64,000 nucleotides of DNA. Origin: Escherichia coli. Lineage in GTDB: Bacteria > Pseudomonadota > Gammaproteobacteria > Enterobacterales > Enterobacteriaceae. The translations under genes were made by a program, and so were the position numbers. The first letter of the stretch is position 1, and each line of letters starts with the position of its first letter. The DNA lies in assembly GCF_045037415.1 (NCBI RefSeq), contig NZ_CP173438.1; one strand, written 5' to 3'. A model generated the notes under the pieces. That model was not told the origin of the DNA, did no database searches, and saw only the letters and a program-made list of their open reading frames with translations. This document shows, piece by piece, positions 7,947 to 12,788 of the stretch.

Positions 7947-9308
7947 TTACTTCTCCAGTTGGCGTAATATCTTATTAACTTTATCAAAAGTTTCCTGATA
8001 TTCCGCTTCTTCCTGGCTATCGGCAACAATTCCACCGCCCGCAGAGCAGTAAATTTGTCCGTTAATGGTAGTCAGCGTGCGGATAGTAATGCTGGTGTCC
8101 ATGTTGCCGCAAAAGCTCAAATAGCCAATGCTGCCGCACCAGGCATTGCGTCGCTGCGGTTCCAGTTCGTCGATAATTTCCATAGCCCGTACTTTCGGAG
8201 CCCCGGTTATTGAGCCACCAGGAAAAGCCGCGCGCAGCAGATCGCTGGCGTGTAACTGTTCTGGTAGTTGCGCCGTTATGGTGCTGACCAGATGATGCAC
8301 GGCAGGGAAGGGTTCCACCACGAACAGCTCTGGTACTTTTACCGAACCTGCTACGGCAACACGACCGATATCATTACGCATTAAATCGACAATCATCAGA
8401 TTTTCGGCACGATCTTTCGTTGAGTTCGCCAGTTTTTCTGCTTGTTTGCTATCTTCCAGAAGATCGGGCAGGCGTGGTAGCGTGCCTTTAATCGGGCGGG
8501 TCTGGATTTCACCATTATCACAAAGAATAAACCGCTCTGGTGAAAGGCTTAAAATAGCAGCCTGTTCAAGACGTAAAAAAGCGCTAAACGGCGCGCGGTT
8601 GGCCTGATTAAGCTGAAGGAATGCCTGCCATTCATCGCCAGAATAGGTCGCATGAAAACGCTGGGCGAGATTCACCTGATAGCAATCACCGCTGTGCAGA
8701 TATTCCTGTACCTGGCGAAATTTTTCGCCGTACTGTTCGCGGGTCATATTGGATTGCCAGTCGGAAGTGAGTGTGAAATCTTCCTGCGGGGAGAATTGCT
8801 GGCTTTCCAGCCAGGCCCGACGGGCATTGACATCATTATGACTCAGCAAAGAAACTGTTTGACGCTGGTGGTCGACAACCAGCGCCCAGTCGTAGATACC
8901 CACTGCCATATCCGGCAGAACGATATCTTGTTCCGCAATTTCTGGCAGTGACTCAAAACGGCGGCCCAGATCGTAGCCAAACAACCCCAGCGCGCCGCCC
9001 TGAAATGGCAAATCTTCGTTATGCGCTGGGCGAATGTCTGCACGATCCAGCACCTGCTGGAGCACCTGTAGCGGGTCATCAGTGGTCGTTGTGCGTTTTT
9101 CGCTTTCACTAACAACGGTTTCTTTACCGAAAGTGGTTAAAGTGCAAATTGGCTCGGCGACCACAATATCAAAGCGGCTATACGGATGATCGGCATAGCC
9201 GGAGTGTAAAAGCATCGCCCACGGCAGGTGGCTTAAGTGGGAGAAATAAAATTCAGCGGCGTCCTGACGCCAGGGTAAAGTAATCACAGCGGGAGATAAC
9301 GTCTTCAT
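7947..9308 (-). CDS. pabB: aminodeoxychorismate synthase component 1
   Basis: 453-aa ORF MKTLSPAVITLPWRQDAAEFYFSHLSHLPWAMLLHSGYADHPYSRFDIVV... recognised as PabB. Confidence 0.96.
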   Translation of the reverse strand: MKTLSPAVITLPWRQDAAEFYFSHLSHLPWAMLLHSGYADHPYSRFDIVVAEPICTLTTFGKETVVSESEKRTTTTDDPLQVLQQVLDRADIRPAHNEDLPFQGGALGLFGYDLGRRFESLPEIAEQDIVLPDMAVGIYDWALVVDHQRQTVSLLSHNDVNARRAWLESQQFSPQEDFTLTSDWQSNMTREQYGEKFRQVQEYLHSGDCYQVNLAQRFHATYSGDEWQAFLQLNQANRAPFSAFLRLEQAAILSLSPERFILCDNGEIQTRPIKGTLPRLPDLLEDSKQAEKLANSTKDRAENLMIVDLMRNDIGRVAVAGSVKVPELFVVEPFPAVHHLVSTITAQLPEQLHASDLLRAAFPGGSITGAPKVRAMEIIDELEPQRRNAWCGSIGYLSFCGNMDTSITIRTLTTINGQIYCSAGGGIVADSQEEAEYQETFDKVNKILRQLEK

Positions 9309-9381
9309 CAGTCCTGACTCTACTGGCTATGTGCCGGGTAGCATGAAATAATTAGCGCCAACAATTTAGCAGGAGTTAACA

Positions 9382-9561
9382 ATGTTTGCAGGTTTACCTT
9401 CACTCACCCATGAACAGCAGCAAAAAGCCGTCGAGCGGATCCAGGAACTGATGGCACAAGGGATGAGCAGCGGCCAGGCAATCGCGCTGGTGGCAGAAGA
9501 GCTGCGTGCCAACCATTCCGGCGAGCGAATCGTGGCGCGTTTTGAGGATGAAGACGAGTAA
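9382..9561 (+). CDS. yoaH: small protein YoaH (UPF0181), 59 aa
   Basis: Not in ORF track (under 60 aa). ATG at 9382 preceded by AGGAG (9371-9375); translates [59 protein letters not shown], stop 9559-9561. Confidence 0.85.
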
Positions 9562-9619
9562 CACACTAATCCGTATCGCTTTCGTTATAGAAGCCGATGA
9601 TTATTTGATTGTGAGAAAA

Positions 9620-9652
9620 AGGACGCTTTTTATATGTGATTAAAAGCGTCCT
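9620..9652. terminator. inverted repeat between convergent yoaH and yoaC (AGGACGCTTTT / AAAAGCGTCCT, 11-nt loop); possible bidirectional terminator
   Basis: Perfect 11-bp inverted repeat in the 120-bp convergent gap; no clean U-tract, so functional assignment is tentative. Confidence 0.3.
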
Positions 9653-9680
9653 GACCCATTTATGCTGATGTGAATTTAAC

Positions 9681-9980
9681 TCAAACCAGTGCTTTTAGTT
9701 CTTCCTGCATATATGTTGAAAAGTATTCAGGATTTTTAATCACAGAGCGTTCACCAGACTCCATTTTTTTTGCCCATCCAACCATTTTTTCCGTGAAACC
9801 AGGGTTCCAGCCTTCCTGGTCAGCTCGCGCCGTAATATCAGCGGCACTCGCGGGTACTCCCAGTTCTTTTAAATATTTAAAGATTCCCTTCGCCGTACTT
9901 TCATTCATCGAACTTGGTGTTGGCGCTGATACATCCATGGCACCAATGAAATCCAGGGCTTTATCTATTACAGCAGGCAT
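9681..9980 (-). CDS. yoaC: DUF1889 family protein
   Basis: ORF 9681-10004; K-12-length product (99 aa) begins MPAVIDKALDFIGAMDVSAPTPSSMNESTAKGIFKYLKELG... Confidence 0.9.
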   Translation of the reverse strand: MPAVIDKALDFIGAMDVSAPTPSSMNESTAKGIFKYLKELGVPASAADITARADQEGWNPGFTEKMVGWAKKMESGERSVIKNPEYFSTYMQEELKALV

Positions 9981-10401
9981 ATTCTTATCCTTAAAATTAA
10001 CCATGTTATCGATAAGGCTATATATGACCTTAATTTGTATCTAATATCAAAGGGATTATAACGATATGGCACGAGTTAACCTATTGACATTCAGGTGTTT
10101 TAAAGGTAGCAGCTCATGGTGTGTTATCCAGTAAGATGGAGAAAATTAATGGTCAGTCCTCACGCTATAACCAGATTGTTCAGGTAAGAAAGAAAACCAG
10201 AGATGCTAATCGAAGGGCGAACATAACGGCATGATTATGTTTATTTATATAGTTAGTTTTATAGATAAAATTGAAATTATAAAAATAAATAATGAATTAG
10301 CAGGAGCATCAACTGTAATATCTTAATCTCTGGTCGATTTTTGCAAAACCGACCAGTATTGTCGATAAATTATCGTCTGACTTATTTTGCTTCGATAAAG
10401 C

Positions 10402-10746
10402 TTACACCGCAGCCACAATCTTAATTTCAACTTTATACTTCGGGTTCATCAAACCTGCTTGTACCGTGCAGCGCACCGGCGCATGACCCGCGACAACCCA
10501 GGCATCCCACGCTTTATTCATCGCCGCGAAGTCGTTTTTATCGGCCAGGAAAATGGTGGCATCCAGAATGCTCGATTTATTGCTGCCCTGTTTTTCCAGC
10601 ACGGCGTCAATCTGCGCCAGCGTGTTGGCGGTTTGCTCAAAGGCATCGGCGTCGAGGTTTTCCGGTACACCAGTGTAGTAGAGCGTGTTGTTGTGGATTA
10701 CCACATCAGACCAGCGGGCTTCGGCATCGATACGAACGATAGTCAT
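10402..10746 (-). CDS. yoaB: RidA/YjgF-family protein
   Basis: ORF 10402-10794; K-12-length product (114 aa) begins MTIVRIDAEARWSDVVIHNNTLYYTGVPENLDADAFEQ...; GAGGA upstream. Confidence 0.9.
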   Translation of the reverse strand: MTIVRIDAEARWSDVVIHNNTLYYTGVPENLDADAFEQTANTLAQIDAVLEKQGSNKSSILDATIFLADKNDFAAMNKAWDAWVVAGHAPVRCTVQAGLMNPKYKVEIKIVAAV

Positions 10747-10877
10747 CATTTTGTCCTCATTATACTTCCATTTTCGTGCTGCAAAGACTGCCACAATGTG
10801 AGGTCGCCGTCACCACTTCAACTGGCGAAAGCGCCCTCATCCTGACATAATCCCTGTTCAAATCAACAGGGGGTAGT

Positions 10878-12788
10878 GTGACGGACGATTTTGCACAAGA
10901 CGGTCAGCTGGCGAAAGCGATACCAGGCTTTAAGCCGCGAGAACCACAGCGACAGATGGCGGTAGCCGTCACCCAGGCGATAGAAAAAGGCCAGCCGCTG
11001 GTGGTGGAAGCCGGAACCGGTACGGGCAAAACCTACGCTTACCTGGCCCCTGCGCTGCGGGCGAAAAAGAAAGTCATAATCTCGACCGGCTCAAAAGCGT
11101 TGCAGGATCAGCTCTACAGCCGCGATTTGCCAACGGTCTCAAAGGCATTGAAATACACGGGCAATGTGGCGCTGCTGAAAGGGCGCTCAAACTACCTCTG
11201 CCTCGAACGTCTCGAACAGCAGGCTTTGGCGGGGGGCGATCTGCCGGTACAAATCTTAAGCGATGTGATCCTGCTGCGCTCCTGGTCTAATCAAACAATC
11301 GATGGTGATATCAGCACCTGCGTCAGCGTGGCGGAAGATTCACAGGCGTGGCCGCTGGTCACCAGCACCAACGATAACTGCCTCGGCAGCGACTGCCCGA
11401 TGTATAAAGATTGCTTTGTGGTCAAAGCACGCAAAAAAGCGATGGACGCCGATGTGGTGGTGGTAAACCATCATCTCTTTCTGGCGGATATGGTGGTGAA
11501 AGAGAGCGGTTTTGGCGAACTGATCCCGGAGGCGGACGTCATGATCTTCGACGAAGCCCACCAGCTGCCCGACATTGCCAGCCAGTATTTTGGTCAGTCA
11601 CTCTCCAGTCGACAACTGCTCGACCTGGCAAAAGACATCACCATCGCCTACCGCACCGAATTAAAAGACACCCAGCAGTTACAAAAGTGCGCGGATCGTC
11701 TTGCCCAGAGTGCGCAGGATTTTCGCCTGCAACTCGGTGAGCCTGGTTATCGCGGTAACCTGCGTGAGCTGTTAGCTAATCCGCAAATTCAGCGGGCATT
11801 TTTACTGCTCGATGACACTCTGGAACTTTGTTATGACGTGGCGAAACTGTCGCTGGGGCGTTCCGCCTTGCTGGATGCGGCATTTGAGCGCGCCACGTTA
11901 TATCGCACACGGCTGAAACGGCTAAAAGAGATCAATCAGCCGGGCTACAGCTACTGGTACGAATGCACTTCGCGCCATTTTACTCTGGCTCTCACGCCGC
12001 TCAGCGTGGCGGATAAATTCAAAGAGTTAATGGCGCAAAAAACCGGTAGCTGGATCTTTACCTCAGCAACGCTGTCGGTGAACGACGATCTGCATCATTT
12101 CACCTCGCGGCTTGGCATTGAACAGGCAGAGTCATTGCTGTTACCCAGCCCCTTTGATTACAGCCGCCAGGCGTTACTCTGTGTGCCGCGCAACCTGCCG
12201 CAAACCAATCAACCGGGTTCCGCACGGCAACTGGCGGCAATGCTGCGACCGATCATCGAAGCTAACAACGGTCGTTGTTTTATGCTTTGTACCTCGCACG
12301 CCATGATGCGCGATCTGGCCGAGCAGTTCCGCGCTACCATGACGCTTCCCGTTTTGTTGCAGGGGGAAACCAGCAAAGGGCAACTGTTGCAGCAATTTGT
12401 CAGCGCCGGTAACGCGCTTCTTGTGGCAACCAGCAGTTTCTGGGAAGGGGTGGACGTGCGTGGCGATACATTGTCATTGGTGATTATCGACAAATTGCCG
12501 TTTACCTCGCCGGATGATCCACTATTAAAAGCACGCATGGAAGATTGCCGTTTGCGCGGTGGTGATCCGTTCGATGAAGTACAACTGCCGGATGCGGTCA
12601 TTACTCTCAAGCAGGGGGTAGGGCGATTGATTCGCGACGCCGACGATCGCGGCGTGCTGGTGATTTGCGACAATCGGCTGGTGATGCGCCCTTACGGCGC
12701 GACGTTTCTCGCCAGTCTGCCGCCAGCGCCGCGCACCCGTGACATTGCCCGTGCGGTTCGTTTCCTTGCGATACCATCCTCCAGGTAA
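10878..12788 (+). CDS. yoaA: DinG-family ATP-dependent DNA helicase
   Basis: 636-aa ORF, GTG start; Walker A GTGTGKT, DEAH box IFDEAHQL, Fe-S cysteine cluster CLGSDCPMYKDCF visible. Confidence 0.95.
   Translation: MTDDFAQDGQLAKAIPGFKPREPQRQMAVAVTQAIEKGQPLVVEAGTGTGKTYAYLAPALRAKKKVIISTGSKALQDQLYSRDLPTVSKALKYTGNVALLKGRSNYLCLERLEQQALAGGDLPVQILSDVILLRSWSNQTIDGDISTCVSVAEDSQAWPLVTSTNDNCLGSDCPMYKDCFVVKARKKAMDADVVVVNHHLFLADMVVKESGFGELIPEADVMIFDEAHQLPDIASQYFGQSLSSRQLLDLAKDITIAYRTELKDTQQLQKCADRLAQSAQDFRLQLGEPGYRGNLRELLANPQIQRAFLLLDDTLELCYDVAKLSLGRSALLDAAFERATLYRTRLKRLKEINQPGYSYWYECTSRHFTLALTPLSVADKFKELMAQKTGSWIFTSATLSVNDDLHHFTSRLGIEQAESLLLPSPFDYSRQALLCVPRNLPQTNQPGSARQLAAMLRPIIEANNGRCFMLCTSHAMMRDLAEQFRATMTLPVLLQGETSKGQLLQQFVSAGNALLVATSSFWEGVDVRGDTLSLVIIDKLPFTSPDDPLLKARMEDCRLRGGDPFDEVQLPDAVITLKQGVGRLIRDADDRGVLVICDNRLVMRPYGATFLASLPPAPRTRDIARAVRFLAIPSSR

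What the first reader, a model, noticed from the sequence alone, without database searches (positions are those of the whole stretch)
9309..9680. yoaH (59 aa) is real while the listed 66-aa minus-strand ORF across it is an artifact
The track lists a minus-strand ORF 9366-9566 but omits the plus-strand 59-codon gene 9382-9561, which has a strong AGGAG Shine-Dalgarno 6 nt upstream and translates to the conserved UPF0181 protein YoaH. This shows how the length cut-off mis-assigns this locus.
Basis: partly seen in the sequence, partly recalled or inferred. Interest (0 to 1): 0.2.

Follow-up and report, generated by a model that had tools for sequence, protein, structure and literature searches.

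The report
yoaH gene with antisense shadow ORF
The 59-codon plus-strand ORF is the well-known, conserved E. coli small-protein gene yoaH, and the longer 66-codon ORF on the opposite strand is an ordinary chance "shadow" of it, so the finding is correct but routine.

Summary
The observation and its interpretation both hold. The window is E. coli chromosome (100% identical to strain SK1144). An ORF list cut at 60 aa shows only the minus-strand ORF 9366-9566 (66 aa, GTG). It hides the plus-strand ORF 9382-9561 (59 aa, ATG), which has AGGAG 6 nt upstream. The plus ORF is YoaH: Pfam UPF0181 E 2.8e-29, and NCBIfam YoaH equivalog 114 bits against a cut-off of 72. RefSeq annotates it as yoaH. It is open, with ATG and CAGGAG, in all 80 Enterobacteriaceae species sampled, at dN/dS about 0.06. 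The minus ORF matches no family. Its exact product is absent from 15 billion called proteins. It carries stops in 74 of 80 species and in one of five further E. coli strains examined.

It cannot separate the two frames, because they share the same wobble positions. The shadow frame even shows a misleading dN/dS of about 0.13. Stop codons are what decide the case. About 12% of synonymous recodings of yoaH leave this frame open, so the ORF is expected by chance.

YoaH's function remains unknown. The model is a helical hairpin with an acidic tail, and the Vibrio homologue occupies the vxrE position. This is already known and of low interest.

The parts
9382..9561 (+). yoaH coding sequence (59 codons plus TAA), UPF0181/YoaH family small protein
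   Evidence: Pfam PF03701 E 2.8e-29. NCBIfam NF003476 equivalog 114 bits against cut-off 72. RefSeq annotates yoaH at this position in SK1144 and K-12. The ORF is open with ATG in 80/80 species. dN/dS 0.058.
9371..9375 (+). Shine-Dalgarno AGGAG, 6 nt before the ATG
   Evidence: Read directly from the sequence. CAGGAG lies at the same spacing in all 80 orthologous loci.
9344..9352 (+). TGaAATAAT, likely extended -10 promoter element of yoaH (inferred)
   Evidence: A nearly invariant block GC(A/G)TGAAATAAT appears in the alignment of 81 intergenic regions. It matches TGnTATAAT at 7 of 8 specified positions. The strict -35/-10 scan did not report it. No transcription-start data were examined.
9379..9381 (+). 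ACA directly before the start codon (reported MazF cleavage site of yoaH mRNA)
   Evidence: Sequence. Table 1 of PMC5001579 lists yoaH with a cleaved ACA 3 nt from the start, among polysome-associated mRNAs.
9620..9652 (.). 11-bp stem / 11-nt loop hairpin between the convergent genes yoaH and yoaC. On the minus strand it is followed by UUUUUCUC (9619-9612), so it is an intrinsic terminator of yoaC and probably a weak bidirectional one for yoaH.
   Evidence: RNA folds of both strands. The minus strand gives -25 kcal/mol, z -4.6, with 0 of 200 shuffles as good. The plus strand gives z -2.2.
9366..9566 (-). 66-aa GTG-initiated shadow ORF antisense to yoaH (not a gene)
   Evidence: No Pfam or NCBIfam hit. 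Stops in 74/80 species, and the GTG is lost in E. albertii. A stop in E. coli CT282 and start loss in 2020CK-00188. The exact product is absent from 15 billion called proteins. No promoter-like site was found, and the yoaC terminator lies upstream of it.
9400..9564 (-). 54-aa GTG ORF in the other antisense frame (not a gene)
   Evidence: No family hit. Stops in 80/80 species in that frame. Not in the protein collection.
7947..9308 (-). pabB, divergently transcribed neighbour (73-bp intergenic region 9309-9381)
   Evidence: RefSeq annotation. pabB lies divergent and adjacent in 80/80 loci, with a 61-99 bp gap.
9681..9980 (-). yoaC (DUF1889), convergent downstream neighbour
   Evidence: Pfam PF08986 E 1.6e-48. 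RefSeq annotation gives 99 aa. Present in only the 5 Escherichia loci of 80.

Best explanation
Window 9382-9561 (+) is the E. coli gene yoaH. It is transcribed away from pabB, probably from a conserved extended -10 element (TGaAATAAT, 9344-9352; inferred). It is translated from ATG 9382 using AGGAG 9371-9375, and is followed by a hairpin shared with the convergent yoaC. The minus-strand ORF 9366-9566 is a non-coding shadow. It lies in the antisense frame whose stop codons can only arise where a yoaH codon ending in T (or C) precedes a CA- or TA-initial codon. YoaH has no Tyr, and in this strain none of the codons before its His/Gln codons ends in T, so the frame happens to stay open. A 60-aa length filter then keeps the 66-aa shadow and drops the real 59-aa gene. 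The protein itself is predicted (moderate confidence) as two antiparallel helices (residues 10-25 and 30-44) around an invariant G27 turn, with a disordered acidic tail. Most likely it is a cytoplasmic protein-binding modulator rather than an enzyme. This step is inferred only. Its Vibrio homologue sits in the vxrE position, as the last gene of the vxrABCDE envelope-stress two-component operon.
For: Family membership above curated cut-offs applies to the plus ORF only. RefSeq annotates yoaH here, and nothing on the minus strand, in every record examined. The locus is present in 5424 of 5426 complete E. coli genomes. Across 80 species the plus ORF is open with ATG and CAGGAG in 80/80, while the minus-66 frame carries stops in 74/80. 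127 substitutions that are synonymous in yoaH are nonsense in the minus frame. In E. albertii, E. whittamii and a divergent 'E. coli', YoaH stays 100% identical despite 12-18 substitutions, while the minus frame gains 1-3 stops. Within E. coli, CT282 has a stop and 2020CK-00188 lacks the GTG. dN/dS is 0.058. The exact YoaH sequence occurs on at least 1000 contigs, and the minus products have never been called. The chance of the frame staying open is 11.7% by simulation, against 7/81 observed. yoaH mRNA was polysome-associated in PMC5001579. A Salmonella yoaH transposon mutant had a fitness defect in PMC12767474. AF2 model: mean pLDDT 78, above 90 over residues 11-40. Vibrio synteny is HK(DUF3404)-RR-DUF2861-TraF_2-UPF0181 downstream of pntAB, matching the vxrABCDE description in PMC4441509.
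Confidence: 0.97

Rival explanations
1. Both strands code: the 66-aa minus ORF is a young, Escherichia coli-specific antisense overlapping gene embedded in yoaH.
For: The ORF is intact in the window, in K-12, O157 and several other E. coli strains. A weak GGA lies a few nt upstream of its GTG. Its frame shows an apparent dN/dS of 0.13.
Against: The low dN/dS is inherited from yoaH through the shared wobble positions. There are stops in 74/80 species, including all five other Escherichia lineages sampled. Within E. coli there is a stop in CT282 and start loss in 2020CK-00188. There is no family hit, and the product has never been called. The product is Ser/Cys/Trp-rich low complexity with no internal Met. 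An 11.7% chance expectation matches the observed frequency. The yoaC terminator lies directly upstream and no promoter-like site was found.
Confidence: 0.02
2. Neither ORF codes: the conservation reflects a structured RNA or regulatory DNA next to pabB.
For: The protein is very short and has no known function. The region lies close to the pabB promoter.
Against: Variability has a strict three-base period: 25/17/52 variable columns at codon positions 1/2/3. There are 0 stops in 80/80 species. Start and SD are conserved. dN/dS is 0.058. Protein homologues down to about 45% identity occur in Vibrionales, Pasteurellales, Thorsellia and an Arsenophonus endosymbiont in unrelated genomic contexts. 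There is no Rfam match.
Confidence: 0.01

Closest known systems
YoaH / UPF0181 family (Pfam PF03701, NCBIfam NF003476; E. coli K-12 b1811, UniProt YOAH_ECOLI)
   Same: The protein is identical to the K-12 protein. It has the same neighbours (pabB, yoaC, yoaB, yoaA) and the same length, and scores above both curated cut-offs.
   Different: Nothing of substance: 6 nucleotide differences from K-12 across 9309-9680, of which the 2 inside the CDS are synonymous.
Vibrio cholerae VxrE (VCA0569), last gene of the vxrABCDE operon
   Same: Vibrio UPF0181 proteins (about 50% identical to YoaH over the core) occupy the fifth position of a pntAB-HK(DUF3404)-RR-DUF2861-TraF_2-UPF0181 cluster. This matches the published operon layout (PMC4441509).
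   Different: E. coli has no adjacent two-component system, and yoaH stands alone, divergent from pabB. The VCA0569 sequence itself was not compared here. VxrE's role is also unknown: a minor colonisation defect with CI 0.70 and a Tn-seq signal in tobramycin.
Antisense 'shadow' ORFs of bacterial genes (known gene-finding artefact; own knowledge)
   Same: It is a long stop-free frame opposite a real gene. It lies in the relative frame that is commonest for shadows in this window (47 of 96), and its apparent purifying selection is inherited from the sense gene.
   Different: Here the shadow is longer than the real gene, so a pure length filter inverts the call. That is unusual only because the real gene is so short.

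Membership tests
YoaH / UPF0181 (PF03701; NF003476 equivalog) | Score above the curated whole-protein cut-off of the family models | tested here: met
   PF03701: 100.9 bits against 23.5. NF003476: 114.2 bits against 72, aligned 1-59 to model positions 1-60.
YoaH / UPF0181 (PF03701; NF003476 equivalog) | Small size (about 50-65 aa core) with the conserved core L-(T/S)-H-E-Q-Q-x-A-V-E-R-I-x-x-L-M-x-x-G-M-S-S-G-x-A-I-x-x-V-A-x-E-(L/I)-R | tested here: met
   In an alignment of 30 diverse members, M1, I20, G27, A33, I34 and R42 are invariant. Q13, A16, E18, L23, V37 and A38 are at least 90% conserved. All are present in the window protein.
YoaH / UPF0181 (PF03701; NF003476 equivalog) | Orthologous position in Enterobacterales (divergent from pabB) | tested here: met
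   pabB is divergent and adjacent in 80/80 Enterobacteriaceae loci and in a 64%-identical, more distant Enterobacterales homologue. RefSeq labels it yoaH.
YoaH / UPF0181 (PF03701; NF003476 equivalog) | The protein is actually produced | not testable with these tools
   Only indirect evidence is available: dN/dS 0.058, yoaH mRNA polysome-associated in PMC5001579, and a mutant fitness effect in Salmonella in PMC12767474.
Genuine antisense overlapping gene (for the minus ORF 9366-9566) | Reading frame kept open in related genomes | tested here: not met
   Stops in 74/80 species, in all 5 other Escherichia lineages and in E. coli CT282.
Genuine antisense overlapping gene (for the minus ORF 9366-9566) | Conserved start codon and ribosome-binding site, and its own promoter | tested here: not met
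   The GTG is replaced in E. albertii, Escherichia sp. E1V33 and E. coli 2020CK-00188. No promoter-like site was found in 9150-9800, and the yoaC terminator lies just upstream.
Genuine antisense overlapping gene (for the minus ORF 9366-9566) | Homologues or family membership of the product | tested here: not met
   No Pfam or NCBIfam hit at E of 1 or less. The exact sequence is absent from the 15-billion-protein collection.
Genuine antisense overlapping gene (for the minus ORF 9366-9566) | Selection on its own frame beyond that imposed by the sense gene | tested here: not met
   At the shared wobble sites, 225 changes that are synonymous in yoaH are missense in the minus frame and 127 are nonsense. 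Only 65 changes show the reverse pattern. Amino-acid identity is 0.82 against 0.89 for YoaH.
VxrE (Vibrio vxrABCDE operon member) | Encoded as the last gene of an operon with the VxrA/VxrB two-component system | tested here: not met
   In the window and in all 80 Enterobacteriaceae loci the neighbours are pabB and yoaC/yoaB, with no histidine kinase or response regulator. The family is shared but the operon context is not.

The most novel reading that the evidence does not exclude
YoaH is the orphaned enterobacterial counterpart of Vibrio VxrE. It would be a small acidic helical-hairpin protein that modulates an envelope or antibiotic stress response by binding a partner protein. Its invariant coupling to the pabB promoter region in Enterobacterales (61-99 bp, 80/80 loci) would then reflect shared regulation. 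Much less likely, the minus ORF is a translated, E. coli-restricted proto-gene.
Probability: 0.1. Interest if true: 0.35.

Novelty: already known. Interest (0 to 1): 0.06.

Why it matters
For biology it matters little: yoaH is annotated in essentially every E. coli genome. It is useful as a worked example for the scan itself. A fixed 60-aa ORF cut-off can drop a real small gene and keep its longer antisense shadow. Codon periodicity or naive dN/dS cannot rescue the call when the shadow shares wobble positions with the real gene. Cross-species stop codons and profile-HMM hits can. YoaH/VxrE remains an uncharacterised small protein that is conserved across Enterobacterales, Vibrionales and Pasteurellales and kept even in an Arsenophonus endosymbiont.

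Tried and rejected
1. Codon-position variability as a frame discriminator. It was rejected because the minus-66 frame has the same wobble columns as yoaH.
2. NG86 dN/dS in the minus frame. It gives 0.13 even with stop codons skipped, so it is misleading rather than informative.
3. Rfam scan of 8900-10900 at E of 1 or less found nothing.
4. The consensus sigma-70 scan found no promoter. Its only terminator-like hit lies inside pabB (9272-9257, minus strand). It missed the 9620-9652 hairpin because that loop is 11 nt.
5. The PDB sequence search gave only insignificant hits: designed helical proteins, and 4-OT-type tautomerases at E 0.4-1. NCBIfam tautomerase scored E 0.028 but far below its cut-off. 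These were rejected as helical-composition noise, and YoaH lacks the catalytic N-terminal proline.
7. Long multi-repeat proteins hit by phmmer (P0139, P0206, P0154, P0202, P0210) match dozens of unrelated Pfam families at similar scores. They were treated as low-complexity cross-matches.
8. pabB linkage as a functional clue fails outside Enterobacterales.
9. Literature searches for yoaH and UPF0181 returned mostly noise. No functional study was found.

Full report
**What is at the coordinates.**

- With the default 60-aa cut-off, only the minus-strand ORF 9366..9566 (66 aa, GTG start) is listed across the locus.
- With a 30-aa cut-off, the plus-strand ORF 9382..9561 (59 aa, ATG) appears.
- AGGAG lies at 9371-9375, six bases before the ATG.
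- An in-frame TAG at 9367-9369 excludes any longer N-terminus.
- The interval 9309-9680 is the whole space between pabB (minus strand, start codon 9306-9308) and yoaC (minus strand, stop codon at 9681-9683).

**Identity of the locus.**

The 572 bases around the locus are 100% identical to E. coli SK1144. They are present in 5424 of 5426 complete E. coli genomes. RefSeq annotates sdaA-nudL-pabB on one strand, then yoaH, yoaC, yoaB and yoaA, and nothing antisense to yoaH. K-12 MG1655 has the same arrangement (b1808-b1814). Across 9309-9680 it differs at 6 positions, and the 2 inside the CDS are synonymous.

The plus-strand product matches Pfam UPF0181 (PF03701, E 2.8e-29). It also matches the NCBIfam equivalog 'YoaH family protein' (114 bits, cut-off 72). 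The 66-aa and 54-aa minus-strand products match nothing at E of 1 or less. The exact YoaH sequence is on at least 1000 contigs of the 15-billion-protein collection, under the name YOAH_ECOLI. The exact minus-strand products have never been called, although the same DNA is in thousands of assemblies.

**Comparative test of the two frames.**

Eighty loci from different Enterobacteriaceae species were fetched.
- The plus frame is open, starts with ATG and is preceded by CAGGAG at constant spacing in 80/80.
- Variable alignment columns fall 25/17/52 (of 54 each) on codon positions 1/2/3.

Its periodicity profile (17/25/52) is therefore equally 'coding-like'. A Nei-Gojobori estimate gives an apparent dN/dS of 0.13 for it, against 0.058 for yoaH. 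So 'synonymous-site conservation' as proposed does not discriminate.

Four other observations do:
- The minus frame carries stop codons in 74 of the 80 species.
- At the shared wobble sites, 127 substitutions that are silent in yoaH are nonsense in the minus frame and 225 are missense. Only 65 show the opposite pattern.
- In E. albertii, E. whittamii and a divergent 'E. coli', YoaH is 100% identical despite 12-18 substitutions within the CDS. Meanwhile the minus frame gains one to three stops, and in E. albertii it also loses its GTG.
- Within E. coli proper, strain CT282 has a silent GCA to GCT change at 9456 that puts a stop in the minus ORF. Strain 2020CK-00188 lacks the GTG.

**Why the shadow exists.**

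In this relative frame a stop can arise only where a yoaH codon ending in T (or C) precedes a codon starting with CA or TA. YoaH has no tyrosine. There are only five sites where a silent change to T would create a stop: T9, I20, A25, G31 and N44, each before a His or Gln codon. In this strain none of them carries T.

Sampling synonymous codons with the window's own codon usage leaves the frame open in 11.7% of 20,000 trials. That is close to the 7 of 81 sequences where it is open. Shadows are abundant in this window. 96 of the 220 ORFs of at least 60 aa lie antisense inside ORFs of at least 200 aa, and 47 of those are in this same shared-wobble frame. The only unusual thing here is that the true gene is shorter than its shadow and shorter than the cut-off.

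**Anatomy of the gene.**

- *Promoter.* The 73-bp pabB-yoaH spacer contains a block, GC(A/G)TGAAATAAT, that is almost invariant across the 81 aligned sequences. It reads as an extended -10 element (TGnTATAAT, 7 of 8 specified positions) at 9344-9352. This would give a leader of about 20 nt. It is an inference: the strict -35/-10 scan reports no promoter, and no transcription-start data were examined.
- *MazF site.* An ACA lies directly before the ATG (9379-9381). A Poly-seq study lists yoaH among MazF-processed, polysome-associated mRNAs with a cleaved ACA 3 nt from the start (PMC5001579).
- *Terminator.* Downstream, an 11-bp stem with an 11-nt loop (9620-9652) is followed on the minus strand by UUUUUCUC. 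It folds far better than shuffles (z -4.6), so it is the yoaC terminator. It probably also serves, more weakly, for yoaH. Its position between yoaC and the GTG of the shadow ORF means read-through from yoaC is unlikely to supply an mRNA for the shadow.
- *Other RNA.* No Rfam family matches the region.

**What YoaH does.**

This remains open.
- *Distribution.* An exhaustive profile-free search found 94 representative clusters. The family occurs in Enterobacterales, Vibrio/Photobacterium, Actinobacillus, Thorsellia and an Arsenophonus endosymbiont.
- *Conservation.* An alignment of 30 diverse members shows an invariant G27 between two conserved amphipathic segments, plus invariant I20, A33, I34 and R42.
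- *Structure.* AlphaFold2 on that alignment gives helices 10-25 and 30-44, short terminal strands and a disordered acidic tail. Mean pLDDT is 78, and above 90 in the core.
- *Genomic context.* It is informative only in part. pabB is the divergent neighbour in 80/80 Enterobacteriaceae loci and in a more distant Enterobacterales locus, but not elsewhere.
- *Vibrio link.* In Vibrio the homologue is the fifth gene of pntAB-HK(DUF3404)-RR-DUF2861-TraF_2-UPF0181. This matches the published vxrABCDE operon, so YoaH corresponds to VxrE. That equivalence is inferred from gene order and from the description of VxrD as resembling an outer-membrane transport protein (PMC4441509).
- *Phenotypes.* VxrE has only minor reported phenotypes. 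A Salmonella yoaH transposon mutant lost fitness in competition assays (PMC12767474).

My best guess, at roughly 25% confidence, is a small cytoplasmic protein-binding modulator connected with stress responses. It is not an enzyme or a DNA-binding protein.

**Verdict.**

This is an already known gene and a textbook shadow ORF. The interest is low and mainly procedural.

Noticed in passing
window 9670-10044 (+): A second ORF kept by the 60-aa filter (124 aa, GTG) is another shadow. It lies antisense to yoaC (9681-9980, minus strand) and in the same shared-wobble relative frame as the yoaH shadow.
   Followed up: partly
window 9681-10004 and 10402-10794 (-): The longest-ORF rule over-extends both neighbours. 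yoaC is listed as 107 aa against 99 aa in RefSeq (start 9980). yoaB is listed as 130 aa (GTG) against 114 aa in RefSeq.
   Followed up: partly
window 9600-10400: An AT-rich stretch (GC 0.30-0.36 around 10000-10400) holds yoaC and a roughly 400-bp gap (10005-10401) with no annotated gene. yoaC occurs in only the 5 Escherichia loci of 80, whereas yoaB occurs in 65. This looks like a lineage-specific insertion between yoaH and yoaB.
   Followed up: partly
window 9344-9352 (+): TGaAATAAT is almost invariant across 81 Enterobacteriaceae pabB-yoaH spacers, although the spacer length varies from 61 to 99 bp. It is a likely extended -10 promoter of yoaH, and the consensus scan missed it.
   Followed up: partly
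L088 2750-7165; L090 2767-7177: In Vibrio metschnikovii and V. chagasii the UPF0181 gene is the last of five co-oriented genes after pntAB: DUF3404 histidine kinase, response regulator, DUF2861, TraF_2, then UPF0181. This is the vxrABCDE layout, so YoaH would be the counterpart of VxrE.
   Followed up: partly
P0166, P0187 (metagenomic proteins): These are 365-368-aa products with DUF2861 fused to a C-terminal UPF0181 domain. They are either real fusions of vxrC-like and vxrE-like genes or gene-calling read-throughs.
   Followed up: no
L089 10100-12786: In V. metschnikovii CP101478, filamentous-phage-like genes (Zot, secretin, DUF5455) lie a few kb downstream of the UPF0181 gene. Several V. cholerae papers found with the term VCA0569 deal with CTX prophage or V. 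cholerae genome comparisons, but I did not read them.
   Followed up: no
L091 4001-4456: Actinobacillus delphinicola has a 63-aa UPF0181 gene followed about 150 bp later by a 35-aa ORF with a weak UPF0181 hit. This may be a degraded tandem duplicate.
   Followed up: no
L094 (E. coli 2020CK-00188) 362-423: In this strain yoaC is replaced downstream of yoaH by a different, co-oriented hypothetical gene (WP_032184407.1), and similarity to the window ends right after the yoaH stop codon.
   Followed up: no
P0139, P0206: These proteins carry 3-6 tandem copies of an approximately 55-aa unit (LTPEQRQQV..KELREQGKTPQEIRAAIAEMLKGWG) that resembles the YoaH core. P0206 begins with a signal-peptide-like segment. 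They also hit many unrelated Pfam models, so homology is doubtful.
   Followed up: no
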